A stretch of DNA of 64,000 nt from a bacterium (lineage in GTDB: Bacteria; Electryoneota; JAOADG01), in assembly GCA_963681965.1 (NCBI GenBank), contig OY820579.1:1216001-1280000 (forward strand). Direction: 5' to 3'. How positions within the stretch are numbered: the stretch's first letter is position 1; the number at the start of each line of letters is the position of its first letter. This document shows, piece after piece, positions 48,244 to 63,289 of the stretch. The notes beneath the pieces were generated by a model that saw only the letters and a program-made list of their open reading frames with translations, was not told where the DNA came from and made no database searches. The translations under genes were made by a program, and so were the position numbers.

Positions 48244-49812
48244 ATCGAGAACAACGATACGACTCTTTCCGATAGTGATATCGATGGATTGCTTGCAGAG
48301 AACAGTAAAGCGGGAAGCTTTGTTCAAGACAACTTCAAGGGTTTGTTTTTCGCCAAGGGTGTGCATGCCGCCATTGATAATATCCGCACCAACATTGACG
48401 ATCTTCGAGGCTACAAAAAAGACATTGCACTCTTTGCACTGGCGAAAGCGTGTATCAGTGGCAAGGGGGGGTTCGGACATTTCCAGTCGTCGGTTCGGTA
48501 CGGCAAGTTCGAAGATACTCTTGCTGAGTTTACGAAGCGATTCCGTGATAACTGTGTAACGATCAATCAACTCGTGTTCGACAACAAGAAAGAAAATCGT
48601 GCAGAAAACTCTACTATCGATGAGTTGCTACCGGGTGTTAAAGTTGATCTAGCCTATTTCGATCCACCGTATGCTACTGAGTTTTCAACAACGAATTATG
48701 AGAGTTCTTATCACTTTATCGAAGGATTGATGACCTACTGGAAAGGTCTTACGATCAACGACGATAGTGCTACCCACAAATTTTTTGAAATTGAAGAACA
48801 AACTGTTACCCAGAATAGCGCTGATACATTTTTTGAAATATTCCTGAGAGGCGCACAAGGGATCAGTTGTTGGATTATCTCATACCGTGATCACGCATTT
48901 CCAAACGAAGCGAAGATCAAATCGCTCATCTCGGATTCTGGAAAAGTATCTAGGATGTTCTCGAAGGATCATTCTTACCAATTGGCTGGAAACGATCGTC
49001 ATGGTGAAGCATCGCAAGCGAAGGAACATATCTTCGTATGTGGTCCTACCGAAACCGCGATCCGTTCGCAAGCAGATTGGGAAGAGGAAGCAAAGTCGAT
49101 TTCTCAATGGCAGCCAGTGACTGCCTCGTCGATCGCTTCAACAAGCAGATTGCATTGCTCGACTATAAATGCTGACATCAAACTGGTGTCTGAAGCAGAA
49201 GATAGTATTGAGAGTCCCACCGATCCGGAGTTTGTGTTCGTTTTGACTCATGTCGGGACGAATCTAAACGGCGACAATTTTACCCGTGACGAACTGATTA
49301 AAGCTGCACCGACAGCGATTACCCGAAAAGTTGATCTCAAGCATTCGCAGGATCTCACTGACATCGTAGGTGGTATTACCGATTCCCAGTGGAAAGACGA
49401 GGATGGCGGTCTCGTTGAATGTACCGGTCGTCTCTTCGTTGCTGACAATCCGCACGCACAACTCGCCTACCGGCTCATGAAGGAAGGTATTGTTAAGCAG
49501 GTCTCGATGGAATGCCAGTATGATGCTGGTGAATGTTCGATCTGCGGCAAGAAGTTTTCATCGAAGTCCGATTACTGTATCCATCTTCGCAAATACAAAG
49601 GTGCCATCTATCAGGGTAAACCAGTATTTGAAATCCTTCGCGGTGTCGTGTTTACCGGTGTGGGATTGCTATCCGATAAAGGTGCCGACGAGCGTGCGGT
49701 TATCCGTTCCATTGCGGAAACAGGAGTCAAAATGAAAACGCAGGCATTGTCTTTTTCTGAATATTTCCTCCAGCAACAGCGTAGCATGACGCTGTGGGAC
49801 ATCGTGGGATGA
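48196..49812 (+). CDS. 5'-truncated DNA adenine methyltransferase fused to a phage prohead protease-like domain
   Basis: DLAYFDPPY (motif IV) but no FxGxG; then THVGTNLNGDNF...H...VSMEC...CSICG...CIH...FTGVGL; MTase-like sequence starts near 48244. Confidence 0.7.
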   Translation: MRSPVAGEHCVYDLADIENNDTTLSDSDIDGLLAENSKAGSFVQDNFKGLFFAKGVHAAIDNIRTNIDDLRGYKKDIALFALAKACISGKGGFGHFQSSVRYGKFEDTLAEFTKRFRDNCVTINQLVFDNKKENRAENSTIDELLPGVKVDLAYFDPPYATEFSTTNYESSYHFIEGLMTYWKGLTINDDSATHKFFEIEEQTVTQNSADTFFEIFLRGAQGISCWIISYRDHAFPNEAKIKSLISDSGKVSRMFSKDHSYQLAGNDRHGEASQAKEHIFVCGPTETAIRSQADWEEEAKSISQWQPVTASSIASTSRLHCSTINADIKLVSEAEDSIESPTDPEFVFVLTHVGTNLNGDNFTRDELIKAAPTAITRKVDLKHSQDLTDIVGGITDSQWKDEDGGLVECTGRLFVADNPHAQLAYRLMKEGIVKQVSMECQYDAGECSICGKKFSSKSDYCIHLRKYKGAIYQGKPVFEILRGVVFTGVGLLSDKGADERAVIRSIAETGVKMKTQALSFSEYFLQQQRSMTLWDIVG

Positions 49813-50454
49813 TTGCAAAGCTATCTCAACGATCTACTAGGCAAAGTGAAGAATGAAGACCTCACCAACGACCAAGCCTTCGAACTGATGCAGAGTGGCG
49901 TTGAGCAATTTCGTTCCTCGCTGGAGGAGCTGTTTCAAAATCCAGCCGATTTACCAACTGTGGAGGCAAAGAAAATGACTGATCCAAAACCACCGGAAAT
50001 CCCTCCGGCGAGTGCGGCAGCTCCGGGAAGCGAACAGATTAAGACGCTTGAACTGGAGAATGCTGATTTGAAAAAGCGCGTCGATGAGCTATCGAAGCAA
50101 CTCGATGCACTGAAGAAAGCTGCTGCTCAAGAAAAAGCGAAGTCGAAAGCAACGGAACTAGTGAAGCGATTCGAACTCAAAGGTCGGACGTTTGCCAATG
50201 ATACCGAGCGTGAAGTGGAGATTGAACGATTGGCAGCCCTATCTGATGAAGCGCTAGCGGCAGTGGAAATCACTGTTTCGGCAATGCCTGATCTTTCCGC
50301 CCAGGCAAATCGCCAGCCAATACTCAAGACCGATGCTGGTGTAAAGCCGGTCAATGTTGCCGACACGGCGCCCGGCGACGAACTCAAAACTGGTCTCAAA
50401 GACGGCTTAATGGCGGCTTACAAACAGAATCGCGGCGAAGCGGTCACGAACTGA
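49813..50454 (+). CDS. Putative capsid scaffolding protein (in frame with the upstream ORF after one TGA)
   Basis: Coiled-coil, Ala/Lys/Glu-rich; lies between protease and decoration/capsid genes; internal GGAGG-preceded ATG at 49975. Confidence 0.65.
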   Translation: MQSYLNDLLGKVKNEDLTNDQAFELMQSGVEQFRSSLEELFQNPADLPTVEAKKMTDPKPPEIPPASAAAPGSEQIKTLELENADLKKRVDELSKQLDALKKAAAQEKAKSKATELVKRFELKGRTFANDTEREVEIERLAALSDEALAAVEITVSAMPDLSAQANRQPILKTDAGVKPVNVADTAPGDELKTGLKDGLMAAYKQNRGEAVTN

Positions 50455-50467
50455 GAAGGAGATCTCG

Positions 50468-50887
50468 ATGGCAAATTACCTGAATGCCGCCTTGCCTGGC
50501 ATCGCATACGGCAATGGCGAACTGCAGGGTCCGGGAAATCCCGGACAAATTGTAAAACTGGTCGGTAATGATCTGTTCGAAGTGGTCAGTAATGCGAATG
50601 ACGAACCGTTCGGTTTGCTGGGTCGCACAAATCGGCTCAAGAGCGGACCAATCCCGACATCCACCGACAAAGTACTAGCGGTTGTATTCGTTGGCGATGG
50701 AATCTACGAAACGGATAACTTTTCCGGGTCGATCACTGCCGGCAATACACTGACATTCGATGCATCGCTCGGCAATCTGAAAGGTGCCGGAGCCGGTGCA
50801 AAGATAATTGGTCGTGCGCTGTCAGTTTCAGACGGCATGCTCAAATTTCAATGGACGAATCACGGGACTAGCGTCCCCTCGACGTAA
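50468..50887 (+). CDS. Putative capsid decoration/cement protein
   Basis: 139 aa, Gly-rich beta pattern (GIYETDNF...AGNTL...IIGRALSV); position just before the capsid gene; AGGAG RBS. Confidence 0.6.
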   Translation: MANYLNAALPGIAYGNGELQGPGNPGQIVKLVGNDLFEVVSNANDEPFGLLGRTNRLKSGPIPTSTDKVLAVVFVGDGIYETDNFSGSITAGNTLTFDASLGNLKGAGAGAKIIGRALSVSDGMLKFQWTNHGTSVPST

Positions 50888-50897
50888 GGAGGTTTCA

Positions 50898-51764
50898 ATG
50901 ATTAGCACCGAAGTGAACTCTCGCGAATTCATGGAGAAAATGGGTCAATTGATGACCCGTTCTCTGGAAACCCCGGAAGGAATGCATGCAATGGCGGAAG
51001 CGATTGCTCCTCCGATTGAAATGGAAATCAATCGCCGGATCATCACACCGTTATTGCTTACTGAACACCCATTACCGCCTGGACAACCGGCAAAGTACCA
51101 GAAAGTACCCGGTATCAAAGCACATTGGATCGCCACTGGTGGAATCGTTACATCTACCGATGTCGCTGATTTCGATGAAGTGGAATTTCCAATTGACCGC
51201 ATTCCGGCAAATCCGATGGTTGATGTTTCGGCATTGCAGAGTGGTAACGTCGGTACACTCACCGATCACCAGAATAAAGCGGCAAACGCAATCCGGAAGG
51301 AAGTCGACAAGCGAACAATGTCGCTATTTTCGGCTTCAGTTTCGCAATCGAATACCATCACCATTACCAGTGGTGGCAAGCTGACCGAAACCGCCTTCTA
51401 TCAGGCAATTGCCAAAGTTGAAGACCTCGAGCTGAATCCGAAATTTATTCTAATGCGTGGTGCGAGAATGTCAGATTTGAAAAGCTGGTCGAATCTTGAT
51501 CCGCAGACCAACCGCGAATTGTTCGAAAAGGGCGTTGTCAAGACAATGGGTGGAGCAGGTTTAATCAATACTGCTGCTGCATCGTTATCGGAAGTTATCA
51601 TCGTTCCGGACACTGAGATCGGTAAATACGCCATTCGAAGTGCAATCACTGCTGAACCCTACAAGGATGTTCCACGATTCAAAGTCGGTTGGGTGGTTTG
51701 GATGGAATGTGCGCTCGGTATTACCCGTCCCGATCTGTTGTTCAAAATCGTAATCAACGGGTGA
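50898..51764 (+). CDS. Major capsid protein (probable HK97 fold)
   Basis: 288 aa with strong AAGGAGG RBS; AIRKEVDKR spine-helix pattern, C-terminal GWVVWMECALGITRP; gene order. Confidence 0.75.
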   Translation: MISTEVNSREFMEKMGQLMTRSLETPEGMHAMAEAIAPPIEMEINRRIITPLLLTEHPLPPGQPAKYQKVPGIKAHWIATGGIVTSTDVADFDEVEFPIDRIPANPMVDVSALQSGNVGTLTDHQNKAANAIRKEVDKRTMSLFSASVSQSNTITITSGGKLTETAFYQAIAKVEDLELNPKFILMRGARMSDLKSWSNLDPQTNRELFEKGVVKTMGGAGLINTAAASLSEVIIVPDTEIGKYAIRSAITAEPYKDVPRFKVGWVVWMECALGITRPDLLFKIVING

Positions 51765-51768
51765 TGAT

Positions 51769-51963
51769 ATGGCAACACTGAAGAATATTTCGGGAATGAC
51801 ACTAGCATTTCCGTCAGGAGTTATCCTCGCACCCGATGCAACACTCTCAGTAAGTAAACCAAATGTGGAACAGAAGGAAGCGATGAGTCTCGGCTTACTA
51901 GTGGAAGCGAAGGGGTTGGAACCTGCAGGCGATTGCGAGAATGGAAAGCAGCCGAATCCATGA
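51769..51963 (+). CDS. Small phage hypothetical protein
   Basis: 64 aa directly after the capsid gene; ATGA overlap with the next gene. Confidence 0.55.
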   Translation: MATLKNISGMTLAFPSGVILAPDATLSVSKPNVEQKEAMSLGLLVEAKGLEPAGDCENGKQPNP

Positions 51964-52388
51964 CGTTAGGTTCTGAACTCACCGCCAAGTTGCGGCTCGA
52001 CTATCACGATACGCTGAGCGATCCGGAACACGATCTATCGGATGAACAGCTTTGTCGGTGTATCGAGCGCGGATTGTTGTTTCTGAATCGAGATTTCGCT
52101 GCGGTCTACACAGTATGTGGCGATGGCATTGATCCGGCGCTCTCACAGGAACATCGGGAAATGTTACTTCTGCGGTCACTTGCACTAGTGTGCGAACTGA
52201 TGGCAGCGAAATCATCACGTCATGTTTCATTCTCTTCCGGTGATAAATCGGTGACCCATGGCGATGAAGCAAGGATCTGGCTCGCACTGGGTGAACGCAG
52301 TATGGCACGATACGATGCCGCAGTGGAAGTTTGGACGGGTGGAGTCGGTAGCCTGCAGCCCTTGCTGTATGGTGATTCGGAGTCATGA
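51960..52388 (+). CDS. Putative head-tail connector/adaptor
   Basis: Helical N-terminus (LSDEQL), SFSSGDKSV hairpin; position after the capsid gene; ATGA coupling at both ends. Confidence 0.65.
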   Translation: MTLGSELTAKLRLDYHDTLSDPEHDLSDEQLCRCIERGLLFLNRDFAAVYTVCGDGIDPALSQEHREMLLLRSLALVCELMAAKSSRHVSFSSGDKSVTHGDEARIWLALGERSMARYDAAVEVWTGGVGSLQPLLYGDSES

Positions 52389-52759
52389 CAACCTTTCTGA
52401 CCATCGCACAAGCGAATCAGATTCGTGCCGATATGAAAGCGCTTATTGAAAGTAGTGGCGAATCGGCTACACGTTCGCGGCAAGTCTTAACACCGGTATT
52501 GTACGGTGGGCAACCTATCGGTGAATCGGTCAATCAGATCACTTTTCCAGTGTTGCGTAAGCCGCTCCCGGAAAACGATCTGATAAAAAATGGCAATGGA
52601 ATGGTGTTGTCGGTATTGCCGGATGTGGATGTTCAGGAGATTGATCTCGTGACAGTGGATGGTGTGCACTATGGTATCGCAGAGATCACCGAATTCAATT
52701 TGTTCGGTGTAGTGACACACCGGGAGATCAAGCTCGAACCGTACCGGAGTCATACGTGA
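52385..52759 (+). CDS. Putative head closure protein
   Basis: 124-aa beta-rich protein, DVQEIDLVTVDGVHYGIAEI; position in the neck module. Confidence 0.6.
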   Translation: MTTFLTIAQANQIRADMKALIESSGESATRSRQVLTPVLYGGQPIGESVNQITFPVLRKPLPENDLIKNGNGMVLSVLPDVDVQEIDLVTVDGVHYGIAEITEFNLFGVVTHREIKLEPYRSHT

Positions 52760-53229
52760 AAATTGTCATCGACACACGTGCGTTTGCAAAGAGCAAAGCT
52801 GTGCTTCGGAAGCATCCGTTGTTGCTACAAGCGGCATTACAAAGCGCGATGGTAACGCTTGCCGAGGATGTTCGCAAGGTTGCAGTAACGAAACTGCGCG
52901 ATAGTGGTGCAGTCGATTCCGGTTTACTGATGAACAGTATTTCAGTAGTGCCGGAAAGTAAACGCAAACTGATCGTTGGAACCAATGTCGCTTATGCAGC
53001 TGCGGTGGAATTTGGTGCACGTGGTCACTGGCTCCATATCGATTCAGTTCCCGGTATGCGGCTCTGGCTTAAGCGTCATGGAATTTCGGGGTGGAATTCG
53101 CGGAAGTTTTTCTATGTCGCACCCAAACCGCGTCCGTACTTCGAACCGGCATTTGTACATGGAAAAATGATTGCACCGAAAGTAATCGAAGTGGCACTTG
53201 GTAATGTGTTACTGGGACTCCATTCGTGA
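52756..53229 (+). CDS. HK97 gp10-like neck/tail completion protein
   Basis: VDSGLLMNSI, VGTNVAYAAAVEFG, PRPYFEPAF. Confidence 0.85.
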   Translation: MKIVIDTRAFAKSKAVLRKHPLLLQAALQSAMVTLAEDVRKVAVTKLRDSGAVDSGLLMNSISVVPESKRKLIVGTNVAYAAAVEFGARGHWLHIDSVPGMRLWLKRHGISGWNSRKFFYVAPKPRPYFEPAFVHGKMIAPKVIEVALGNVLLGLHS

Positions 53230-53744
53230 AGCTGGAACTCGCATTAGCGCAGTGGATTACGAGTAATCATCCAGAGCTGCATGTGTTCAAGGATGATCTC
53301 GCGCATACCGCCGCCGGGTATCCTTATCCGGTGATGCTGATAACCGAGATCGATGCCAGGCGAAGACAGATCGGGACCGGACCGTACGATGCAGTCGATG
53401 TTGTTGTTGAACGGAAATGGTGGAACGTCGAGCGAACGCTGCGACTTACGGTACGCTCACCGGCGGACAAGCAGTGCGATGGTAACACGATTGTTCATGC
53501 ATTGATCGAACAGATCGATAACACATTGCAGTCACTGTTTCGTATCGGGTCGGTGGATTTGCCACTGGGAGAGGATACGGTACATGTCGCAATGGCGAAT
53601 CATGCTGGTTTTCATGAGCTACCTGCCATCACTGACAAGTTGCCATTCGTGTATCAACGAGCATTATCGTGGCGGTTTCAGGAAGTTACGAGTCAGGAAT
53701 TTGAAATGGTGCCGCTGCTGATTCCCAGTGGAGTATTGCATTAG
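53226..53744 (+). CDS. Putative tail terminator-like protein
   Basis: Position after the gp10-like gene; YPYPVMLITEI and a tail-terminator-like size and pattern. Confidence 0.5.
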   Translation: MKLELALAQWITSNHPELHVFKDDLAHTAAGYPYPVMLITEIDARRRQIGTGPYDAVDVVVERKWWNVERTLRLTVRSPADKQCDGNTIVHALIEQIDNTLQSLFRIGSVDLPLGEDTVHVAMANHAGFHELPAITDKLPFVYQRALSWRFQEVTSQEFEMVPLLIPSGVLH

Positions 53745-53746
53745 CT

Positions 53747-53968
53747 GTGGATGTCAATTCGCTGGTAACGGGTAGTGGCAAAACTTTATCACAATTGGCG
53801 GAGAGTGAACGACAAACGCTGAGTATCACCAAACAGATCGAGCGAGAACAGGTAACGCGGGATTTATCCGAACAAATCTATACTCTACAACGTGCCATCG
53901 CTGAAGCGCCGACACAGGAGCAGCTCGATGCAATCGCCAGCACGATTAGTACGGGAGCTGCACTCTGA
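53747..53968 (+). CDS. Small coiled-coil hypothetical protein
   Basis: 73 aa, GTG start with GGAG RBS, TGATG coupling to the next gene. Confidence 0.5.
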   Translation: MDVNSLVTGSGKTLSQLAESERQTLSITKQIEREQVTRDLSEQIYTLQRAIAEAPTQEQLDAIASTISTGAAL

Positions 53969-54591
53969 TGTCCGATACCATTCTGAATTTATCGGGACTG
54001 CCACCTCAGCGCGCAGCGACGCTATACGATCTGCTGGCACGTACTCGTCGCGATAGTAATTGGCAATCGATTCCGGTGCGGGCAGTATTAGTACCAGACG
54101 ATGGAACGCTCACCATCAATGGTCTTCGGGATAGTCGGTATGCGTTGCTGTTTTCAGATCCGACTGCAATGTCGTTTTCCCGGTTCAAGCTTGAAGTTGG
54201 CGATAAATCAAAGTACCGGACGATCTATCTGAGTGATCCAATTCCGACACCAGTATTGCAATCCGTAGTTGTTTCCGTTCGGCTGAATGAAATCATCGCC
54301 CGTTTGAATTGGTCGATCCAAAGTGATGCCGCAGTTGTCACATTCGATGTTTACCGAAAGTGTGTGAACGAATCAGTGTTTACTCTCGCGCATACAGTTG
54401 CCGATCGGACTTCGAGGCATTGTGAATTGACCGGACTACAAGCCGAGAGTCGGTTTCACTGGTACATCGTGGCACGTGGAGCGGGACAATTTGTTCGAAA
54501 GTCGAACACTGTAGAAATGATAACTCCGGTTTCGCCGGTCGCCGAACCGAATCTGATCGTGAATGGAAATTTTGAGACTGCCGTCTGGTAG
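53968..54591 (+). CDS. FN3-domain protein ending in an isolated CBM4/9-type first strand (fibre gene A)
   Basis: LNW...FDVYRK...LTGLQAESRFHWYIVA FN3 pattern; terminal NLIVNGNFETAVW. Confidence 0.7.
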   Translation: MSDTILNLSGLPPQRAATLYDLLARTRRDSNWQSIPVRAVLVPDDGTLTINGLRDSRYALLFSDPTAMSFSRFKLEVGDKSKYRTIYLSDPIPTPVLQSVVVSVRLNEIIARLNWSIQSDAAVVTFDVYRKCVNESVFTLAHTVADRTSRHCELTGLQAESRFHWYIVARGAGQFVRKSNTVEMITPVSPVAEPNLIVNGNFETAVW

Positions 54592-54609
54592 TCAGGAGAA
54601 TGTTGTATT

Positions 54610-57225
54610 ATGGCACAACCGATTAAAATCTCGACCGTCGAAAAACTGTTCGGCAACCAGTCAATGGAAATCAATCCCGATGGTACGTCTGCAACGGTGC
54701 TAACTGACTTAACCAAGACAAATTATGTGAATCTGCAAGGTCTGACTGCGGTTACGGTTTCTTGCTACATCAACGCTAAGGCTTACTCCAGTGGTTACAT
54801 CGTAGCCCGGGCAGTATTCTTCGATATCAATGATGCGCAACTTGGTACACATGACTGGGTAACACTTTCTGCGGTCACAACTGGATTTTCACGGTTTTAC
54901 CAGACCTATTATCTGTCACAATCGCCGGTTCCTGCCAATACGGTTAAAATGAAATTGCAGTTTGGTGGCATCCAGAAAACCGGGGTTAATCCGAACTTCG
55001 ATACATTCATCGATGGCGTAAAAGTTGAGCAGGGAGACAAGCTCACTGCTTATACCGACTATACGCTGAAAGAGAATGATTCGCTTGATCTGGTTGGCGA
55101 TGGTGTCATTTTCAAAAAAATAACCGGTGTCAGCAACAGTAATCAGGTGACGGCAGATTCGATCGAAACTGCAGCGGTTACTAGCTTAAAGATCGCCGAT
55201 GGTGCGATAAGTACGTCAAAAATTGCCACTGGTGCTGTTACAACTAACGAATTGGGTGCAAATGCAGTTATAACGTCTAAACTCGCAAGCGGAGCGGTAA
55301 CTAGCAACGAGTTGTCAGCTAACGCTGTCATTGATACGAAAATCGCTAGCGGTGCAGTAACGACTGCAAAAATTGCTTCAGGAGCTGTGAATTATTCAAA
55401 GTTGGCTGCGAATTCCGTCATTACGTCTAAAATTAGTGCTGCAGCAGTTGATAGCTCCAAAATAGCTATTGGTGCTGTCGGAATTAACCAAATTGCAGCG
55501 AATGCCGTAGATAATACGAAGCTCGCCGATAATGCCGTGACTAGTTCGAAACTGCAGGATGCGGTAGTCACAAATTCGAAGATTCAATTCGGTACGGTGG
55601 CCGAGGATCGACTCAACAATTCTCTCACCACGAAGCTCTGCAAACTTCAATCTGATGGTACCTTCAAGGGCGATGTCTATTCCAATGATGGTGTAGTCAA
55701 GCTGATCGATTCTGCAACAGGTATGGTAACTTCTGCTTTACAGACGAGCAGTGGCGCTTCCCTAAATGATCGAGTCGAAGCGATCTATACAGATGTTTAC
55801 AACAAAGATGTAGCATTGCCGATTCTTGACAGGAATGTCAATAAATCCTTAGTACATGGAACTTTTAAAACTTATCGCCCTGGTACGACAACTGCAGATC
55901 TGAATATCGGTGTAATCGGTGACTCATGGGATGATTTATTTGAGCTGACCCGCGCGGATAACGGTGAGGATTTACTCGATGAAACCGGAGCGCCAATCAA
56001 AGTAGTAGCGCTCTGGGGAAAGCAAAGTAAGGTGAGTTCAATTATTGCTGGTAATGATCCCAATGGAGTCGGAGCCGGATGGTCTCGCACCGATGGCGAT
56101 GGCACGACCAACTCGACTTGGGTAGAACTCTCGGCTCTTCCAACTGCAAATTTCAACATCGTTTATTCTATCAGAAAAAAACTGTCAACTCTGCAAACGC
56201 GAGACCTAGTCACCGTCGGTGTGATCAAGGGGGGACAATCCGATGCGAACATTACCGGCGCACTGCATGATCTGAAAGGTACGACCAACTGGAATGATGC
56301 GGTCCCAAGTGGTAGAAAACTTACCGATCTGACCACAACGAAAGATGCCGGGGCGACTTATATCATCGCCGATGGTAAGGTAAAGGGAAGCTCGATTGTC
56401 GCCGGTGAAGTAGGCACTACCCAGCTTGCCGACAATGCGGTAACCACCAGCAAGATTCCCGATAACGCTATAAGCACCCAGAAAATTAATTCTGGATCGG
56501 TTACAGGTGATAAAATCGCACCTACAACCATCACAGCTTCGAACATAGCTAATTCAACCATAACCGGAACGCAAATTGCCTCCAGTACAATTACCGGTAG
56601 TAACATTGCTTCTGCGACAGTTACACAATCGAATCTCGCAAATAACTCTGTTGGTTCGGCTCAAATTGCCGATGCCAATATTACCAACGAAAAAATCGCG
56701 AATCTCGCTGTCGATTCAACAAAACTTACTAATGGGGCCGTGACGAATGAAAAGATTGGTGCCAATGCTGTTGATTCCTCTAAGCTCGCCAATGGCGCCG
56801 TTGGAACCACTCAACTTACCAATCTAGCGGTTGATAATTCGAAGTTGGCTGACGCGAGTGTTATCACCAGCAAGATCGCGAATCTCGCAGTCGATTCGAC
56901 CAAGATCGCTGATAGTAGTGTTACCACTGTGAAGATTGCGGCAAATGCTGTCGACGCTACTAAAATCGGTTCTGGTGCGGTTGGAACCACACAGCTAGCC
57001 AATAGCGCAGTCGATTCCACTAAGCTTGCAAACAATGCAGTTGTTGCTGGAAAAATTGCGACCAACGCTGTTGTCAATGGTAATATCGCCGATGGTGCAA
57101 TTACCGATACAAAAATTTCCGACGGATCGGTAACGACTGCCAAGCTCAATGCCACTGCCCTTTCAGTATTCGATGGTCGCAATATGGTGCAGAATCCATC
57201 ATTTGAATCGGGGGCATGGATCTGA
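54610..57225 (+). CDS. Fibre protein with 10-aa AVTxxKIAxG repeats and an N-terminally incomplete CBM4/9-like domain (fibre gene B)
   Basis: Two long decapeptide repeat blocks; N-terminal FGNQSMEI...FIDGVKVEQG; terminal NMVQNPSFESGAWI. Confidence 0.8.
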   Translation: MAQPIKISTVEKLFGNQSMEINPDGTSATVLTDLTKTNYVNLQGLTAVTVSCYINAKAYSSGYIVARAVFFDINDAQLGTHDWVTLSAVTTGFSRFYQTYYLSQSPVPANTVKMKLQFGGIQKTGVNPNFDTFIDGVKVEQGDKLTAYTDYTLKENDSLDLVGDGVIFKKITGVSNSNQVTADSIETAAVTSLKIADGAISTSKIATGAVTTNELGANAVITSKLASGAVTSNELSANAVIDTKIASGAVTTAKIASGAVNYSKLAANSVITSKISAAAVDSSKIAIGAVGINQIAANAVDNTKLADNAVTSSKLQDAVVTNSKIQFGTVAEDRLNNSLTTKLCKLQSDGTFKGDVYSNDGVVKLIDSATGMVTSALQTSSGASLNDRVEAIYTDVYNKDVALPILDRNVNKSLVHGTFKTYRPGTTTADLNIGVIGDSWDDLFELTRADNGEDLLDETGAPIKVVALWGKQSKVSSIIAGNDPNGVGAGWSRTDGDGTTNSTWVELSALPTANFNIVYSIRKKLSTLQTRDLVTVGVIKGGQSDANITGALHDLKGTTNWNDAVPSGRKLTDLTTTKDAGATYIIADGKVKGSSIVAGEVGTTQLADNAVTTSKIPDNAISTQKINSGSVTGDKIAPTTITASNIANSTITGTQIASSTITGSNIASATVTQSNLANNSVGSAQIADANITNEKIANLAVDSTKLTNGAVTNEKIGANAVDSSKLANGAVGTTQLTNLAVDNSKLADASVITSKIANLAVDSTKIADSSVTTVKIAANAVDATKIGSGAVGTTQLANSAVDSTKLANNAVVAGKIATNAVVNGNIADGAITDTKISDGSVTTAKLNATALSVFDGRNMVQNPSFESGAWI

Positions 57226-57971
57226 TGAGCTATTTCGATACTGATAATTCTCATTCTGTATTCGGTGGTTCTTCACTGCGGCTGGTCGGCGACTCGACCA
57301 TGCCGAATGTCATCACTGGACACAGCAATTCCATAACAGTTATTAGCCGGGATTCGATAGTGATATCCGCATATGTTTTCGCACCGGCAATTAGTGCTGG
57401 CACAACCTTTACCGGTCGAATCGAATACATCGACCAGAACGGAAGTTCACTGGGAAGTGGGGATTGGCTTAAACTGACAGTTTCAAACAGCCAGTTTACT
57501 CGGTACTATGCGATCAAAGATATTACCACATTTCCCAATGAAACCGATGCAATTCAGCTATCATTTTCTCTGACCGAAGCTGCAGGGAAGCCGACAGGTA
57601 CGGTATATGTCGATTGTGTGAAATGCGAGTACGGAAACAAGCTGACCGGGTATTCCGAATCGGTGTTTTATGAAGAAATCTGCCAGCACATCGGTGGCTT
57701 CGGGATTCCGAAGATCGGAACATCGCAAATCGAAAACGATTCTATCACCAGTGAAAAGCTGGCAATCGACTTTACCAGTCTTGAGAAAATAACCGATACT
57801 GCAATACAGTTCGATGGTTCAACACTGACTACTAATAAGCAGTTAAGCATTTGCAATGGATTGGCAGCTAATGGTAAACCCGGCATTACACAGACAATCG
57901 AAGTTCCGGATGCTGGTGGCGGGATATACACCATCGCTATTACCGATGGCATCATTACGAGCATCACATGA
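57225..57971 (+). CDS. Fibre tip-like protein with an N-terminally incomplete CBM4/9-like domain (fibre gene C)
   Basis: TGATG coupling; FGGSSLRL...YVDCVKCEYG; two decapeptide repeats; C-terminal ITDGIITSIT. Confidence 0.72.
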   Translation: MSYFDTDNSHSVFGGSSLRLVGDSTMPNVITGHSNSITVISRDSIVISAYVFAPAISAGTTFTGRIEYIDQNGSSLGSGDWLKLTVSNSQFTRYYAIKDITTFPNETDAIQLSFSLTEAAGKPTGTVYVDCVKCEYGNKLTGYSESVFYEEICQHIGGFGIPKIGTSQIENDSITSEKLAIDFTSLEKITDTAIQFDGSTLTTNKQLSICNGLAANGKPGITQTIEVPDAGGGIYTIAITDGIITSIT

Positions 57972-58255
57972 GCGAACCGGAACACATCGAGCATTCGCTG
58001 TTAGAGCCACCATATTCCTGCCAGTACCACTTGGCAAAGATGGAACAGGTATCGCAGCAACTAGCCGATCTTCGCGATGCGGTGAAAGAACTTAACTCGT
58101 CGATCAAAGGAAATGGGAAAGAAGGTATCATCGTAAAAGTGGATCGTAATACCAATTTCCGGTTGTTGATGACGAAGCTGCTCTGGTTTTTGTTTACACC
58201 ATTGTATGGTGGATTGATCGCATTTGTTTTTCAACATTTTGTGGTACATCACTGA
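57968..58255 (+). CDS. Small membrane protein, holin/XhlA-like
   Basis: Coiled coil, GNGKEGIIVKVDR, C-terminal TM; precedes the holin. Confidence 0.55.
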   Translation: MSEPEHIEHSLLEPPYSCQYHLAKMEQVSQQLADLRDAVKELNSSIKGNGKEGIIVKVDRNTNFRLLMTKLLWFLFTPLYGGLIAFVFQHFVVHH

Positions 58256-58262
58256 GGTAAGT

Positions 58263-58679
58263 ATGAGCCTTTTAACTGCTGTTCCGATTGTAGGACAGAT
58301 CATCGAGAAAGCCGCCGGAATCATCGACAAGTGGGTCCAGGATAAAGATCTTGCTGCAAAATTGAATTACGATTTGCAGGCGCAGATGTTGTCGCTCGAC
58401 TATAGTGCACTCGAAAAGGAAATCGATGCCAAGGCGAAAGTGTTGGTAGCTGAGGTACAGGGTCAGAGTTGGTTACAACGCAACTGGCGACCATTGCTCA
58501 TGCTTGTATTTACCTACATTGTTGCGCACAACTATGTGATTGCACCGATCTTCAGTATTACCTCAGTGCCGGTGCCGGAACAGATGTGGACGCTCTTGAA
58601 CATCGGTATTGGCGGTTACATCGTCGGTCGCAGCGCCGAGAAAATTGCATCGGTCGTGAAAAAGGAAGATTCGAAATGA
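58263..58679 (+). CDS. Holin, 3-TM (GTA holin-like) family
   Basis: AEVQGQSWLQRNWRPLLM...LLNIGIGGYIVGRSAEK; GAGGT RBS before 58263. Confidence 0.85.
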   Translation: MSLLTAVPIVGQIIEKAAGIIDKWVQDKDLAAKLNYDLQAQMLSLDYSALEKEIDAKAKVLVAEVQGQSWLQRNWRPLLMLVFTYIVAHNYVIAPIFSITSVPVPEQMWTLLNIGIGGYIVGRSAEKIASVVKKEDSK

Positions 58680-59242
58680 CACTTAATGATATTGAATTTG
58701 TACCCGCAGCTGTTGGAAATTATTCTTCGCGTCCTCGTGGTATAGTGATCGATACTATCGTCATTCATTACACGGCGAACGGCAGTATCGAGGATACCAT
58801 CGCATGGTTCCAGAATCCGGTGAATAAAGTATCGGCGCATTATGTGATTGGTCTCGATGGTCGCATTGTTCGGATGGTGCAAGACGCGAAAAAAGCTTAC
58901 CATGCCGGTGTATCACAGTGGAACGGTCGTACCGGCGTCAATGAATTTTCCATCGGTATCGAACTTGTCAACTGGGGTCCAGTCAAATTGCGCAATGGTG
59001 CGTTTTTCGCATGGCCAAGTGATTATTCACATCCTTATAAAGGGGATATGCCTGTGCTTATTGAGTCTGAATACTGGCAACCCTACCCGGAACCGCAGCT
59101 AATTGCGCTCGAGCAACTGGTACAACTCCTCTGCGAAGAGTACCCAATTCAGTGGGTGGTAGGGCACAATGAGATAGCACCCGAACGCAAGATTGATCCA
59201 GGTCCAGCATTCCCGTGGGAGCGTTTTCGCTTTAAAGTTTGA
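58676..59242 (+). CDS. N-acetylmuramoyl-L-alanine amidase endolysin (Amidase_2/AmpD-like)
   Basis: IVIHYTA, VSAHYVI, AYHAGVS, SIGIELVN, GHNEIAPERKIDPGP; ATGA overlap with the holin. Confidence 0.92.
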   Translation: MTLNDIEFVPAAVGNYSSRPRGIVIDTIVIHYTANGSIEDTIAWFQNPVNKVSAHYVIGLDGRIVRMVQDAKKAYHAGVSQWNGRTGVNEFSIGIELVNWGPVKLRNGAFFAWPSDYSHPYKGDMPVLIESEYWQPYPEPQLIALEQLVQLLCEEYPIQWVVGHNEIAPERKIDPGPAFPWERFRFKV

Positions 59243-59811
59243 CACAATCGAAACATTTAACATTCTTCAATTTGAACTCCAACACTCTCATTTTTCCCTC
59301 TAGATTTGGTGAAGATTTACTTCGAATGTCCTAAGTAGGTATACATTGGTATTATTCCCTTTTCTCCAGCATCGATGCCAAGTCGATTGGCAGAACTGCT
59401 CATTTTGTGGTCTCCAATTTTCGAAAACATCGACTTGCTGGATCGCTTTGCTGCCCAAAGTCGATCAATATTTTGCTGACACCTAATTTTTATGTGGCAT
59501 ACAATTACTCGTGTAATGAAAGAAATTTACTAAATATCAACGCCTAAATTTCACTAATACTATTTTCAAAACAATGTGAGAAATTGATAGCTCTAGGAAG
59601 ATTCTGCAGAATATTTTATTTAGTATTGATAGCGGATGTCAATGATCTTACTTTATGACTAATTACAACGGATACATACTTGGGCGGCTTGCAGTGATTA
59701 AGATCGATGTAACCGAAAATCTTACTGGTTTACTGAGTATTCTGCGCCCATGCTTGAAGTGCTGGGCGTTTTCTTGTATGCTGAATTAGGTTAGAGGGAA
59801 GTGGAGGAAAG

Positions 59812-62382
59812 ATGCGAACGAATAGATTGATCCAGACGATCCTCGCAGTCGTTATCCTGATCGGTTCAGTATATGGTGTCAGTGTGCAATCGACGCGATT
59901 GCCACACCCATTCCAGTTTACCGAGAACAAGGGGCAATGGGATTCCGCCGTCCTCTATAAGTGTGAAGTGCGGCGCGATGGCTTCACCTGGTTCCTCGAA
60001 CGCGATGGTGTCACACTGGTTACGTCTGTGATCGATTCAACAAAACCCATTGACAATACCCGATTCAATCCGTTGGATCGCGATCTCCCACCGCGCTATG
60101 CGTTAAAATCGCATGCCCTCAAATTCAAATTCATCAGCGAATGCACGACACAAAAGGATGTCGGAATAAATTCCGACCTACGAAAATACACTTGCGCAAA
60201 ATCCATCGATGCACAAGGTGAACTATCGTGGCACAATAATTATTTCCTCGGAAATGATTCGTCGAAGTGGGCACCGGATTGTAGGAACTTTACATGTATC
60301 GTGTATCATGATGTCTGGGACGGCATCGATGTCGAGTGGTATGAGAGCAAAGGTCATCTTGAATTCGATTTCGTGGTACATCCCGGTGCTGATCCGAAAC
60401 AAATCAGGATGGTGTGTGAGGGATTGGAAGCGCCAATAGTAGGCGGTGGACGGACACTCTTGTCCGTCGACTCAATTAATTCTATCACAAAAAGGAGTCG
60501 GACAGGAGTGTCCGACCTCCTCTTATCAAATGAACTTTCGCTTCCCACCTCCCTCGGTGAATTACGGATGTCAATTCCGGGTGCATACCAAACCATTACT
60601 GATGGCACTCATGGAAACAATGTCACGGCACAATTCAAACTCGTGACGGGAAACGTCTTCGCTATCGATTTGCTGAATGGGTTCGATCCCTCTCAAACAC
60701 TCAGAATCGACCCGCTGGTGTATTCAACATATTTGGGCGATACGGGACAAGATAATGCATATTGTGCAACTGGAAATCGATCTACTAATTTATTCATTTC
60801 AGGCCTCACTTATAGTACAGACTTCCCGATATCTTCTGGAGCTCTACAAAATTCAATAAATGGAACTGAAGATGCATTTATTACACATATAAGTAATAGC
60901 GAGGCAATCGAATATAGTACTTATATCGGTGGATCAGATTTTGAGGAAAGTATCGCAATGGTTTCCGATGATAGTGGAAATATCGCTATCACTGGACAAA
61001 CACGAAGTACTAACTTTCCGATCACCAATTGGAGCCATTTTTATGGTGGAAATTATGATTGCTTCGTAACTAAAATTAACCATCTCGGATCTCAAATATT
61101 ATTCAGTACATATATCGGCGGTCCTCATGACGAGGATGGAAGAGGAATCATCACCGATGGAAATGGTGGAGTAATTATCACAGGTAAAACTGAAGGATTA
61201 TCCGAAGGATTCATCTCACCGAACGCATATCAACAGACTCAAGATGGATCCAATGATTGCTATCTAATTCACTTAAGCAATACTGGTAATCAAATTATTT
61301 ATGGTACGTATCTGGATGGCTCGACATTATCTGAAGGAAAGAGTTTAGTAGTTGATAATATCGGATCGATATCGGTCACCGGTACAACTTATAGTACTGA
61401 TTTCCCGGTAACTACGGGAGCGTTTGACACAACCTATAATGGAAGTAACAATGGTGATTGTTATATAACAAAATTAGGCCCAGACAGCTCATCATTAATT
61501 TTTAGTACCTTCCTTGGAGGGTCTGGATTCGATTGGGGGAATAAAATTGTTAATAACTCCGATAGTACTTTTACCATTCAAGGATTTACATCTAGCGTTA
61601 ATTTTCCAACAACTCCTGGTAGTTTCGATACTACTTTTAATGGTGATATCTGGGGTGACAATTTTATTGCAAAATTGAACGCTGCTGGTTCACATCTAAT
61701 TGTTAGTACATTTTTGGGTGGTTCCGGTTCAGAAGGTGGTTCGATGATTGCGAACGATCAAAATAGCTTTATTATCGCCGGGGGCACATCCAGTGTCGAT
61801 TATCCAACTACGGCTGGATGTTTTGATTCAACTTATCATGGTGGTGAATTCGATTGTTATGTGACTTGGATGAATAATTCTTGTTCGAATATTGTTTATA
61901 GCTCGCTATTCGGTGGTTCTTCCTATGATGCTGTACGGGGATTGATAGATCTAGGAAACTCAGAGTGCTGTTTAGTGGGAACGACCAACAGTTCTGATTT
62001 TCCTACAACAAATAACGCAATTGATACAACTTCTCGCGGTTCTTACGATGTATTTATTACTCGTTTTCTATTATCGCCAAACTCTTTATCGCCGGATCAA
62101 TTAAGAGAATTTAAACCGAGCAGATTCACACTTTATCCAAGCTATCCGAACCCGTTCAATAATTCGATAAATATTCGTTATGACATACACCAGAGTTGTA
62201 AAACGTCATTCGATTTGTTTGATTTAAATGGTAGAGAATTAATGAAATTAGAAAATCAATGGCAAGGACCTGGAAAATATAAATATCAATTATCTGCTAA
62301 AAATCTTACTTCTGGAGTTTACTTTCTTCGTATGAAAGTTGACAAGCAAATCACAACACAAAAGGTTGTTATTGTAAAATGA
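59812..62382 (+). CDS. Secreted SBBP beta-propeller repeat protein with secretion tail
   Basis: FTENKGQW N-domain, IDPLVYSTYLG, repeated GxTxSxDFP...D.FITK...STYIGG; YPNPFN tail. Confidence 0.88.
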   Translation: MRTNRLIQTILAVVILIGSVYGVSVQSTRLPHPFQFTENKGQWDSAVLYKCEVRRDGFTWFLERDGVTLVTSVIDSTKPIDNTRFNPLDRDLPPRYALKSHALKFKFISECTTQKDVGINSDLRKYTCAKSIDAQGELSWHNNYFLGNDSSKWAPDCRNFTCIVYHDVWDGIDVEWYESKGHLEFDFVVHPGADPKQIRMVCEGLEAPIVGGGRTLLSVDSINSITKRSRTGVSDLLLSNELSLPTSLGELRMSIPGAYQTITDGTHGNNVTAQFKLVTGNVFAIDLLNGFDPSQTLRIDPLVYSTYLGDTGQDNAYCATGNRSTNLFISGLTYSTDFPISSGALQNSINGTEDAFITHISNSEAIEYSTYIGGSDFEESIAMVSDDSGNIAITGQTRSTNFPITNWSHFYGGNYDCFVTKINHLGSQILFSTYIGGPHDEDGRGIITDGNGGVIITGKTEGLSEGFISPNAYQQTQDGSNDCYLIHLSNTGNQIIYGTYLDGSTLSEGKSLVVDNIGSISVTGTTYSTDFPVTTGAFDTTYNGSNNGDCYITKLGPDSSSLIFSTFLGGSGFDWGNKIVNNSDSTFTIQGFTSSVNFPTTPGSFDTTFNGDIWGDNFIAKLNAAGSHLIVSTFLGGSGSEGGSMIANDQNSFIIAGGTSSVDYPTTAGCFDSTYHGGEFDCYVTWMNNSCSNIVYSSLFGGSSYDAVRGLIDLGNSECCLVGTTNSSDFPTTNNAIDTTSRGSYDVFITRFLLSPNSLSPDQLREFKPSRFTLYPSYPNPFNNSINIRYDIHQSCKTSFDLFDLNGRELMKLENQWQGPGKYKYQLSAKNLTSGVYFLRMKVDKQITTQKVVIVK
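60159..60181 (-). repeat. GTAG-type REP-like palindrome inside the CDS
   Basis: Minus strand reads GTAG GTCGGAA TTTA TTCCGAC A. Confidence 0.7.
60445..60520. repeat. REPIN-like inverted doublet inside the CDS
   Basis: ggtggacggacactcttgtccgtcgactc ... gagtcggacaggagtgtccgacctcc: two palindromic units in inverted orientation. Confidence 0.7.
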
Positions 62383-62456: not shown

Positions 62457-63266
62457 TCAGGCAGCTGCCTGACAAGAAAGATTTCTTAGACTATCGGTGT
62501 AGACTTCATCTGGGGTTTGATAGCCCAAGCCTTGGTGCGAACGTTCGCTGTTGTAGAACGAAAAATACTCACCGATGCTACGCTCTGCAATGCGAACTGA
62601 ATCGTACCCTTTCAAGTATACTTCCTCGTACTTCAACGACTTCCACAACCGTTCGACAAAACGGTTATCCATCCACCGACCTTTACCATCCATACTGATC
62701 CGAACGCCTGCCTCTTTCAAAACATCCGTAAATGCGATGCTGGTAAACTGACACCCTTGATCGCTGTTGAAGATCTCAGGCTTCCCATACTTCGACAATG
62801 CTTCCGTCAGCGCTTCCACACAGAAATCGGTGTCCAGCGTATTCGAAAGTCGCCACGACAGTACTTTCCGGCTGTACCAATCGATCACCGCCACCAGATA
62901 CACAAAACCCCGAGCCAATGGGATGTACGTGATATCGGTTGCCCACACTTGATTCGCCCGATCTACCACAATATCGCGAAGCAGGTACGGATAAATCTTG
63001 TGTTCCTTGTCAGGAACCGTCGTACGCGGCTTGCGGTACAATGCTTCCAGACCGAGGATGCGTAGCAAGGAACGAACCTTTTTCCGACCAACATCGATAC
63101 CCTGCTTCGATAACTCCACCACCAGTTTACGGGCACCGTAGAACGGAACCTTCAGGTGAAGCTCATCCAGCGTTCGCAACAGCATCAATTTGTTCGAATC
63201 AAGCGGAACAGGGCGATAGTAGTAACTGCTGCGTGGAACCTTGATCAAAGAACACTGCTGAACCAA
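62457..63266 (-). CDS. IS3 OrfB DDE transposase
   Basis: [45 protein letters not shown]. Confidence 0.95.
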
Positions 63267-63289
63267 CGGTAAACGGGCACCCGGATCGA

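What the first reader, a model, noticed from the sequence alone, without database searches (positions are those of the whole stretch)
53968..57971. CBM4/9-like domain split at the same point across two consecutive gene boundaries: a possible strand-complementation fibre chain
Seen: gene A ends NLIVNGNFETAVW* (54550-54591) and gene B begins with the rest of a galactose-binding-like domain (FGNQSMEI...VSCYI...FSRFY...FIDGVKVEQG). Gene B ends NMVQNPSFESGAWI* (57181-57225) and gene C begins with the rest of a second such domain (FGGSSLRL...ISAYV...FTRYY...YVDCVKCEYG). Established: NLxxNxxFE...W is the N-terminal segment of CBM_4_9-type domains and is normally contiguous with the rest. The junctions differ: TAG plus 18 nt in frame with its own AGGAG RBS, versus a TGATG coupled overlap in another frame. 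One recoding mechanism or two chance nonsense mutations therefore explain this poorly. Inference: each protein donates its C-terminal strand to complete the next protein's domain, linking FN3 anchor, repeat shaft and tip into a modular, swappable fibre. I do not know of this being described for phage fibres.
Basis: partly seen in the sequence, partly recalled or inferred. Interest (0 to 1): 0.88.

Follow-up and report, generated by a model that had tools for sequence, protein, structure and literature searches.

The report
Split jelly-roll joints in a prophage tail fibre
Three neighbouring prophage tail-fibre genes are each cut at the same point inside a sugar-binding-type domain, so that the end of one protein probably plugs into the start of the next to join the fibre segments.

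Summary
Gene A (53968-54591) and gene B (54610-57225) each end with N-x-x-x-N-x-x-F-E-x-x-x-W. Genes B and C (57225-57971) each start about 20 profile positions into a CBM-like jelly-roll domain.

A profile built only from contiguous homologs gains 18-21 bits when the true tail is placed before the domain. Shuffled tails add 0-2 bits.

The split is conserved:
- All 11 A homologs are 207 aa and all 6 C homologs are 248 aa.
- B relatives down to 43% identity begin and end the same way.
- A, B and C have dN/dS of 0.06-0.27.

Recoding is excluded. The A-B spacers are 18, 17 and 14 nt, only the window's copy is in frame, and the stop is TAG or TGA.

The best reading is two trans strand-complementation joints linking A, B and C. 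Confidence is 0.6. It is supported by the invariant tails, a tail that is disordered in A alone, and a weak complex-prediction pass (0.54 against a best control of 0.02). Binding itself is not shown.

Pfam CBM_4_9 matches none of A, B, C or the A-B read-through; the similarity is at fold level (CBM16/22/4 and phage fibres).

I rate it a new variant of a known kind.

The parts
53747..53968 (+). 73-aa ORF. It equals the C-terminal 73 residues of a 706-aa protein that precedes gene A in the second prophage (L005). Its stop overlaps the start of A (TGATG).
   Evidence: DNA similarity to L005 begins at window position 53723.
53968..54591 (+). Gene A, 207 aa. It has an N-terminal beta-sandwich, an FN3-like domain (about residues 96-185) and a C-terminal donor tail.
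   Evidence: fn3 at 16.9 bits, below the cut-off; AF2; tandem FNIII matches.
54544..54588 (+). Donor tail of A, EPNLIVNGNFETAVW (residues 193-207). It corresponds to the missing first segment of B's jelly-roll domain.
   Evidence: 11 of its 15 positions are invariant in 11 homologs, against 52 of the other 192. It adds 21 bits to the profile score. Its pLDDT is below 50 in A alone.
54589..54609 (+). TAG stop plus an 18-nt spacer holding the AGGAG ribosome-binding site of B. It is in frame with B in this copy only.
   Evidence: The spacer is 17 nt in L005 and 14 nt, after a TGA stop, in L011.
54610..57225 (+). Gene B, 871 aa. It runs: acceptor domain, roughly 10-residue-repeat shaft, central globular region, second repeat shaft, donor tail.
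   Evidence: (PHROG 892 tail fiber protein, E 1e-69).
54610..55074 (+). Acceptor domain of B (about residues 1-155). It is a CBM-like jelly roll that lacks its first roughly 20 profile positions.
   Evidence: aligns to profile positions 21-162; AF2 model; Foldseek matches to CBM16/22/4 and to phage fibre proteins.
57175..57222 (+). Donor tail of B, GRNMVQNPSFESGAWI.
   Evidence: Conserved in L005, L011, L014 and P0008; P0009 ends NLVQGGSFENGVW. It adds 18 bits to C's domain score. Its codons carry synonymous changes between loci.
57223..57227 (+). TGATG: the stop of B overlaps the start of C, a translational-coupling arrangement.
   Evidence: It is identical in the window, L005 and L011.
57225..57971 (+). 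Gene C, 248 aa. It has an acceptor domain (about residues 1-150; window 57225-57674), a short neck and a small C-terminal tip. It has no donor tail.
   Evidence: (26-27% identical to the B N-domain, E about 4e-14).
57968..59242 (+). Context: a 95-aa ORF, a holin (58224-58679) and an amidase endolysin (58676-59242). They close the fibre-lysis block shared with L005.

Best explanation
A, B and C are three separate, translationally coupled tail-fibre proteins of a myovirus-type prophage family.

At each of the two joints, a CBM-like beta-jelly-roll domain is encoded in two pieces. Its first segment (N-L-x-x-N-x-x-F-E-x-x-x-W) is the free C-terminal tail of the upstream protein. The rest of the domain is the N-terminus of the downstream protein.

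The proposed mechanism is that the tail of A inserts into the incomplete domain of B, and the tail of B into that of C. This would complete each fold in trans, as in donor-strand complementation. It would join the FN3 adaptor, the long repeat shaft and the tip non-covalently.

Shown: the split, its conservation, purifying selection on the tails, and the absence of recoding.

Inferred: physical insertion, the order A to B to C (from gene order and from which protein carries a donor, an acceptor or both), and trimeric stoichiometry (recalled as usual for fibres, not tested).
For: 1. The tails are the missing piece. In the 1.84-billion-protein search, 5 of 15 hits (P0013, P0015, P0017, P0018, P0019) align in one stretch from query residues 3-7, that is from the A tail through the B domain. 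By reading the sequences, 9 of the 15 carry the motif contiguous with the domain. The profile test gives +21 bits (A tail with B domain) and +18 bits (B tail with C domain) in the window; the three loci span +18 to +22. Control tails change the score by -0.2 to +2.6 bits across the three loci.

2. No substitute in cis. B has only 5 residues, and C only 6, before profile positions 21-23.

3. The split is conserved.
- The 6 closest hits (29-92% identical) start within 12 residues of their own N-terminus.
- P0008 (681 aa, 70% identical) and P0009 (870 aa, 43% identical) also end with the motif.
- All 11 A homologs are 207 aa and all 6 C homologs are 248 aa.
- Complete A-B-C loci are present in the window, L005 and L011. 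A further B-C junction is in L014.

4. Selection acts on the peptide.
- 11 of the last 15 residues of A are invariant, while overall identity falls to 46%.
- The tail codons differ synonymously between loci.
- dN/dS is 0.23-0.27 for A, 0.06-0.09 for B and 0.10-0.14 for C. For B and C this covers the two comparisons with unsaturated dS.

5. In the AF2 model of A alone, the FN3 domain is confident (10-residue block means 83-96) but residues 193-207 are below 50 with no secondary structure. The tail therefore does not pack on A itself. In the read-through model, the same segment rises to about 65, beside a domain at 89-97.

6. Complex prediction with B 1-165 and A 95-207 returned the verdict 'weak support'.
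- The score was 0.54 (runs 0.59, 0.51, 0.54). The best of 3 controls scored 0.02.
- The pass mark was reached by 58 of 80 solved complexes and by 2 of 110 mismatched pairs.
- Scores of 0.60 or under were reached by only 7 of those 80, and by both mismatches that passed.
- The runs agree in at least 94% of contacts, and the partner's pLDDT is at least 86.
- My own alignments were used, so these counts hold only roughly.

7. Coupled expression. The AGGAG or AGGA site before B, and the TGATG at the B-C junction, are conserved at all three loci.
Against: - No binding or structure has been measured.
- The complex pass is weak. No contacts were returned, so I could not check that the tail sits in the first-strand position. 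Halves of a known fold can pass by likeness to solved intact CBM structures.
- In the read-through AF2 model, the tail segment reaches only about 65 pLDDT. DSSP calls almost no strand there.
- The profile gain is the same for non-cognate tails: B tail with B domain gives 133.1 bits, and A tail with C domain gives 89.8 bits. Neither specificity nor chain order is demonstrated.
- The B-C joint was not folded at all.
- The window's own prophage lacks tail and baseplate genes. This copy may therefore never assemble a fibre, although its genes are still under purifying selection.
Confidence: 0.6

Rival explanations
1. The tails are conserved for another reason, and the truncated domains stand alone. 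For example, the tails could bind an assembly chaperone, the baseplate or a host glycan. Alternatively, they could be kept as part of a conserved module boundary, with the fibre segments joined through other surfaces.
For: Binding was not measured. The complex prediction gave only weak support and returned no contacts. The B domain is modelled confidently (pLDDT 89-97) while the tail segment reaches only about 65. The profile cannot separate cognate from non-cognate tails.
Against: The tails are homologous to exactly the segment the next protein lacks, at two junctions. Conservation is at the amino-acid level, with synonymous DNA changes, so this is not a DNA recombination signal. A has no other obvious C-terminal docking element beyond its FN3 domain. 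The donor/acceptor bookkeeping (A donor only, B both, C acceptor only) fits a chain.
Confidence: 0.25
2. Trans complementation occurs, but with other connectivity. The B tail could enter the B acceptor, giving B-B polymers of variable length capped by C. Alternatively, the A tails could bind both B and C, giving a branched fibre.
For: Non-cognate tails give the same profile gain as cognate ones. B carries both a donor and an acceptor.
Against: The A-type tail (NLI[VI]NGNFE) and the B-type tail (N[LM]VQNPSFESGAW) are each conserved in their own position across loci. The B and C acceptor domains are only 26-29% identical. This pattern suggests matched pairs. Gene order and coupling fit A to B to C.
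Confidence: 0.1
3. Recoding. TAG readthrough at the A-B junction and a frameshift at the B-C junction would make fused A-B-C polypeptides in which the domains are contiguous.
For: In the window, A and B are in the same frame and separated by one TAG and 18 nt. A run of five G lies just before the B stop.
Against: The spacers are 18, 17 and 14 nt. A and B are out of frame in L005 and L011, and also in L016 by my reading of the match coordinates. L011 uses TGA as its stop. The G run is broken in L005 and L011, and there is no slippery heptamer. The ribosome-binding site and ATG of B are conserved. TAG ends other genes in the window, and the window holds no tRNA gene.
Confidence: 0.03
4. Artefact or decay: sequencing errors, or two nonsense or frameshift mutations in a dying prophage gene.
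For: The window's prophage is incomplete. It has no tail or baseplate genes, and the 73-aa ORF is a remnant of a 706-aa gene.
Against: The same gene ends appear in independent assemblies at 46-86% identity. dN/dS is well below 1 in all three genes.
Confidence: 0.02

Closest known systems
Donor-strand complementation/exchange in chaperone-usher pili
   Same: An incomplete beta-sandwich in one subunit is completed by a short terminal extension from the neighbouring subunit. Repeating this builds a linear non-covalent fibre.
   Different: Here the fold is a CBM-like jelly roll that lacks its first segment, not an Ig-like fold that lacks its last strand. The donor is a C-terminal tail, not an N-terminal extension. 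The subunits are three different phage proteins used once each. I did not look for chaperone or usher genes, and the ORFs beside A, B and C are phage structural and lysis genes.
Split nozzle of Pseudomonas podophage A1002 (gp39/gp42). PMC13730344: passages read by term search, not the whole text.
   Same: A phage tail domain that is normally one polypeptide is encoded by two genes. One protein supplies the beta-strands missing from the other. The authors call this 'structural complementation'.
   Different: That case concerns the beta-propeller and platform of a nozzle protein, at one split, and it is shown by cryo-EM. Here a jelly-roll domain is split at two successive fibre joints, and the case rests on sequence and prediction only.
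Contiguous CBM-like domains in phage fibres and tailspikes. Foldseek matches include mycobacteriophage Douge gp20 (8zdp), Klebsiella phage Kp7 gp52 (7xyc), the K2-2 tailspike (8iq9), the phi812 baseplate (9euf) and the Tuc2009 tripod (5e7t).
   Same: The same jelly-roll fold class, set inside host-recognition proteins (E 6.6e-6 to 2.1e-4; TM-score normalised by query 0.48-0.62).
   Different: As far as the fold search shows, each matched chain was aligned over 165-202 columns to the 188-residue read-through model, tail segment included. None of them is reported here as split between genes.
CBM4/CBM16/CBM22 carbohydrate-binding modules and Pfam CBM_4_9 (PF02018)
   Same: The fold matches (2zey and 2zex CBM16, 4xup CBM22, 1k42 CBM4-2). 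The N-terminal motif aligns to PF02018 profile position 1 in the cellular FN3-CBM protein of L009.
   Different: No Pfam match for A, B, C or the read-through. Sugar binding is untested.
Multi-gene tail fibres such as T4 gp34-gp35-gp36-gp37 (recalled)
   Same: A fibre built end to end from the products of consecutive genes.
   Different: I know of no description of those joints as a split jelly-roll domain.

Membership tests
Pfam CBM_4_9 (PF02018) | Match to the Pfam profile at or above the gathering score (25.9 bits) | tested here: not met
   no PF02018 match at E <= 1 for A, B, C or the TAG=Q read-through of A-B; among 10 relatives, only the L009 cellular protein passes (35.2 bits); P0019 is below the cut-off (22.8 bits).
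Pfam CBM_4_9 (PF02018) | Beta-jelly-roll fold of the CBM4/9/16/22 type | tested here: met
   The AF2 read-through model has mean pLDDT 84.5. Foldseek against the PDB gives 89 matches at E <= 0.001, including CBM16 (2zey, TM-score normalised by target 0.69), CBM22 (4xup, 4xuo) and CBM4 (1k42, 3k4z).
Pfam CBM_4_9 (PF02018) | Carbohydrate binding | not testable with these tools
Donor-strand complementation fibres (chaperone-usher type) | An acceptor domain that lacks a strand, and a neighbour that carries that strand as a terminal extension | tested here: met
   profile positions 1-20 are absent from B and C and present as the A and B tails; the tail is unstructured in A alone.
Donor-strand complementation fibres (chaperone-usher type) | Physical insertion of the donor strand into the acceptor | tested here: inconclusive
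   weak support. Score 0.54, best of 3 controls 0.02. The mark was reached by 58 of 80 solved complexes and 2 of 110 mismatches, but scores of 0.60 or under by only 7 of those 80 and by both mismatches that passed. No contacts were returned.
Donor-strand complementation fibres (chaperone-usher type) | Ig-like pilin fold with a periplasmic chaperone and an outer-membrane usher | tested here: not met
   The fold is a jelly roll, so the Ig-like pilin part is not met. Chaperone and usher genes were not searched for; the genes scanned around A, B and C gave phage head, neck, baseplate and lysis families or no match. The system may work like this family, but it is not a member of it.
Phage tail fibre proteins (PHROG tail fibre families) | Profile match, and position next to baseplate and lysis genes | tested here: met
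   B matches phrog_892 (E 1e-69), phrog_28766, phrog_21412 and others; a holin and an endolysin follow; baseplate wedge genes precede the block in L005. A and C have no PHROG match.
Programmed stop-codon readthrough or frameshifting | A frame relation and recoding signal conserved among relatives | tested here: not met
   The spacers are 18, 17 and 14 nt and only the window is in frame. The stop is TAG or TGA. There is no conserved slippery site.
Fibronectin type III domain (gene A) | Pfam fn3 match or FN3 fold | tested here: inconclusive
   Pfam fn3 scores 16.9 bits, below the 25 cut-off. Homolog P0030 carries a precomputed PF00041 hit. The AF2 model shows a beta-sandwich at residues 96-185 with block-mean pLDDT 83-96. 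Foldseek's best matches are tandem FNIII proteins, with TM about 0.4 over both domains.

The most novel reading that the evidence does not exclude
The split jelly roll is a true plug-and-socket connector for phage fibres. Two orthogonal tail/socket pairs (A type and B type) would dictate the assembly order A-B-C. They would let shafts and tips be exchanged by recombination at a conserved joint, without refolding the whole fibre. That would be a natural donor-strand joint of a kind my searches did not find described for tail fibres. It could also be reused as a covalent-free assembly tag.
Probability: 0.3. Interest if true: 0.75.

Novelty: new variant of a known kind. Interest (0 to 1): 0.62.

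Why it matters
How the separately encoded segments of long phage fibres are joined is known for few systems. It also limits fibre engineering for host-range work in laboratory phage-bacterium pairs.

A short, invariant C-terminal peptide that completes the next protein's domain would be a simple joint that can be recognised from sequence alone. It would explain why the gene boundaries sit inside a domain. It would give a rule for finding fibre partners in metagenomic phages: a donor tail followed by a truncated acceptor. It would also suggest a natural split-domain pair for protein assembly.

The idea is directly testable with peptides and two small domains.

Its reach is limited. The family was found in 3 of 79 genomes of the phylum, in the 6 loci returned by the genome and metagenome scans, in no viral-contig scan and in no deposited phage genome.

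Tried and rejected
Searches that returned nothing useful:
- Pfam on the split and read-through proteins gave no CBM_4_9 match.
- Viral-contig scans with the C alignment and with P0009 found no relative.
- tblastn of the junction region against 50,697 deposited phage records found no match.
- The word-indexed search with B residues 1-170 returned only B itself and P0008, 2 of 718 candidates. Alignment depth for the folds therefore stayed low (18, 20 and 11 rows).

Recombination. A sliding-window comparison of the window with L005 gave 60-96% identity in 150-nt windows, with the lowest values in the repeat shafts. It shows no clean breakpoints at the gene boundaries, so I make no claim of recombination exactly at the joints.

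TAG reassignment. I rejected it because TAG ends other genes in the window, and ARAGORN found no tRNA gene there.

Literature.
- 'tail fiber' + 'strand complementation' gave 0 papers.
- 'split domain' + 'tail fiber' + 'phage' gave 0 papers.
- 'donor strand' + 'bacteriophage' + 'tail' gave 48 papers. Of the 15 listed, the one I opened (PMC13266070, two passages) concerns sheath strand exchange.
- A six-term search led to PMC13730344 (passages read).
- A CBM/cryo-EM search and a Douge search were seen as listings only.
- Supplementary files were not consulted.
- These searches cover open-access papers and bioRxiv only, so 'not described' means not found in these searches.

Not done:
- No trimeric models.
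- No read mapping or RNA evidence.

Full report
**What is there.** The region lies at the end of a prophage late operon. Upstream genes match PHROG families for a major head protein and a neck protein. Downstream genes match a holin and an amidase endolysin.

The three genes of the finding are:
- A, 53968-54591, 207 aa.
- B, 54610-57225, 871 aa.
- C, 57225-57971, 248 aa. The ORF finder lists an ATG at 57216. The 6 homologs all have 248 aa and begin MS[YF][FY]DT.

- A ends ...EPNLIVNGNFETAVW-TAG. An 18-nt spacer with AGGAG follows, then the ATG of B, in the same frame.
- B ends ...NMVQNPSFESGAWI-TGA, and the A of that TGA is the A of C's ATG (TGATG). C is in another frame.
- TGATG also joins the preceding 73-aa ORF to A. 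ATGA joins C to the next ORF.

**Is the tail really the missing part of the next domain?** I searched 1.84 billion representative proteins with the stretch from A residue 192, through the TAG (read as Q) and the spacer, to B residue 165.
- Fifteen proteins had E <= 0.001.
- The six closest (P0007, P0008, P0009, P0010, P0003, P0012; 29-92% identical) match from query residue 24-35. They start at their own residue 1-12, so they are split in the same way.
- Five more distant hits (P0013, P0015, P0017, P0018, P0019) match in one stretch from query residue 3-7, which is from the A tail onward. In four of them this lies inside the protein; P0015 begins with the motif itself.
- By reading the sequences, 9 of the 15 hits have the N..N..FE..W motif contiguous with the domain.

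I then built a profile from 9 contiguous domains only and scored the window's pieces.

| Piece scored | Bits | Profile positions |
|---|---|---|
| B(1-165) | 113.1 | 21-162 |
| A tail + B(1-165) | 134.3 | 3-162 |
| C(1-150) | 70.5 | 23-160 |
| B tail + C(1-150) | 88.7 | 3-160 |

- In the window, shuffled tails and an internal A 16-mer changed the scores by -0.2 to +1.7 bits.
- L005 and L011 behave alike. Across the three loci the tails add 18-22 bits and the controls change the score by -0.2 to +2.6 bits.
- B and C have only 5-6 residues before profile positions 21-23, so they cannot supply the missing segment themselves.
- Non-cognate tails give the same gain, so the profile says nothing about pairing specificity.

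**What fold is it?**
- Pfam finds no CBM_4_9 match in A, B, C or the read-through.
- An AF2 model of the read-through piece has mean pLDDT 84.5. The domain scores 89-97 and the tail part about 65.
- Foldseek against the PDB gives 89 matches at E <= 0.001. They are led by mycobacteriophage Douge central fibre gp20, CBM16 and CBM22. Klebsiella phage Kp7 fibre gp52, the K2-2 tailspike, the phi812 baseplate, CBM4 and the Tuc2009 tripod follow.
- A cellular lipoprotein found through gene A (L009, 359 aa) has FN3 followed by a contiguous domain. That protein matches PF02018 at 35.2 bits from about its NLIVNGNFE motif (residue 205), aligned to profile position 1.
- The domain is therefore a CBM4/9/16/22-like jelly roll. 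The motif is its first segment. A's FN3 plus tail mirrors the FN3-CBM junction of an unsplit protein.

**Is the split conserved or accidental?**
- All 11 A homologs (46-100% identical) are 207 aa and end at the same W.
- 11 of A's last 15 positions are invariant, against 52 of the other 192.
- The same genome holds a second prophage (L005) with A', B' and C'.
- A metagenome contig (L011) has A (46%), B (681 aa, 70%) and C (60%) in the same arrangement.
- A genome of another genus in the same family (L014) shows the B-C junction.
- L010 has A intact, but the B gene is cut short after its first roughly 200 nt by inserted DNA.
- P0009 (43% identical to the B domain) both starts inside the domain and ends NLVQGGSFENGVW.
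- dN/dS is 0.23-0.27 for A. For B it is 0.06-0.09 and for C 0.10-0.14, in the two comparisons per gene where dS is not saturated.
- The tail codons differ synonymously between loci.

Sequencing error and gene decay are thereby excluded.

**Recoding?**
- The A-B spacers are 18 nt (window), 17 nt (L005) and 14 nt (L011).
- Only the window's copy is in frame.
- L011 uses TGA rather than TAG as its stop.
- The ribosome-binding site and ATG of B are kept at all three loci.
- At the B-C junction the TGATG is identical in the three loci. The run of five G before it is broken in L005 and L011 by synonymous changes in the B frame, and no slippery site is present.
- TAG ends other genes in the window, and the window holds no tRNA gene.

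The products are therefore separate polypeptides, made by coupled translation.

**Does the tail bind the next protein?** This step is inferred.
- AF2 of A alone gives two beta-sandwiches, about residues 1-62 and 96-185. The second has 10-residue block means of 83-96.
- The same model leaves residues 193-207 below pLDDT 50 and without secondary structure, so the tail does not fold back on A. Foldseek sees tandem FNIII-like proteins.
- Complex prediction with B(1-165) and A(95-207) gave 'weak support'. The score was 0.54 (runs 0.59, 0.51, 0.54), against a best control of 0.02 out of 3.
- The pass mark was reached by 58 of 80 solved complexes and 2 of 110 mismatched pairs. Scores of 0.60 or under were reached by only 7 of those 80 and by both mismatches that passed.
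- The runs agree in at least 94% of contacts, and the partner's pLDDT is at least 86. My own alignments were used, so these counts hold only roughly.
- No contacts were returned. Because intact CBM folds are in the PDB, the pass may reflect likeness to them rather than binding.
- From memory of CBM4-type structures, the first segment lies next to the last strand of the domain. In B and C that strand is the conserved [FY]-[IV]-D-[GC]-V-K motif. I could not check this on the models.

**Proposed mechanism.**
- A has a donor tail only, B has an acceptor and a donor, and C has an acceptor only.
- With the gene order and the coupling, this fits a linear chain: A (two-sandwich adaptor), then B (long shaft of roughly 10-residue repeats with a central globular part, by eye), then C (tip).
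- Each joint would be the jelly-roll domain completed in trans.
- Fibres are usually trimers (recalled). If so, each joint would hold three completed domains.
- Alternative connectivities, such as B-B polymers or branching, are not excluded.

**Context.**
- DNA similarity between the window and L005 begins at 53723 and runs to the end of the endolysin gene at 59243. It is about 80% identical over 5.5 kb.
- In L005 and L011 the block is preceded by a 706/703-aa protein. In L005, where I scanned them, the genes before that protein are baseplate genes.
- In the window only the last 73 codons of that protein remain, directly after head and neck genes. The window's prophage looks tail-less, either deleted or recombinant.

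**Comparison with known systems.**
- The logic is that of donor-strand complementation in chaperone-usher pili (recalled). The fold, the polarity and the machinery differ, so it is not a member of that family.
- Strand exchange between sheath subunits is described for contractile systems (PMC13266070, two passages).
- A tail protein split into two genes, whose products complete each other's beta-propeller blades, is described for phage A1002 (PMC13730344, passages).
- My searches found no description of a fibre joint made from a split CBM-like domain. They cover open-access papers and bioRxiv only, and supplements were not seen.

**Verdict.**
- I rate it a new variant of a known kind.
- It occurs in a rare family: 3 of 79 genomes of the phylum, none in deposited phages.

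Noticed in passing
window 43000-59243, compared with L005 (G000:C1:2540000-2556000): The window's prophage goes from head and neck genes (major head protein 50898-51764; neck or tail-completion protein 52756-53229) straight into the fibre-lysis block. It has no sheath, tube, tape-measure or baseplate genes. The second prophage has baseplate wedge genes and a 706-aa protein before gene A. Similarity between the two starts abruptly at window 53723. The window's element looks like a deletion or recombinant derivative, yet A, B and C remain under purifying selection.
   Followed up: partly
window 53747-53968 and 53968: The 73-aa ORF is the C-terminal, helix-rich end of the 706-aa protein of L005. 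It overlaps gene A by TGATG, the same coupling as at the B-C junction. A also has a second invariant block in its N-terminal domain, GLRDSRYALLF at residues 52-62. That block may be its docking site for the upstream protein.
   Followed up: no
L010 about 8800-12342 (metagenome locus): In this relative, similarity to the window's gene B stops after its first roughly 200 nt. ORFs that by eye look like type I restriction-modification subunits (673 aa and 454 aa) follow. The 706-aa homolog is truncated next to a 500-aa ORF that by eye looks like a recombinase. No family search was run on these.
   Followed up: no
window 48196-50454: The 538-aa and 213-aa ORFs both match PHROG 27806, annotated 'DNA methyltransferase'. 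They match consecutive parts of one 798-position profile (111-592 and 611-726). This looks like another gene in two pieces within the same prophage, although from its position it might be a portal or scaffold region.
   Followed up: no
window 59812-62382 and 62457-63628: After the endolysin come an 856-aa ORF with many repeated 'S/T-DFP' beta-propeller-like units and, by eye, a C-terminal sorting-type domain. Two minus-strand ORFs that look like the two parts of an IS3-type transposase follow. Neither was tested.
   Followed up: no
P0016, P0017, P0018, P0020: The contiguous homologs of the domain sit in proteins with N-terminal repeats (..AAGAWIGTV.ETIK..) and a shared C-terminal ...LKGFY.GGTT end. 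This looks like another fibre-like family, of unknown origin.
   Followed up: no
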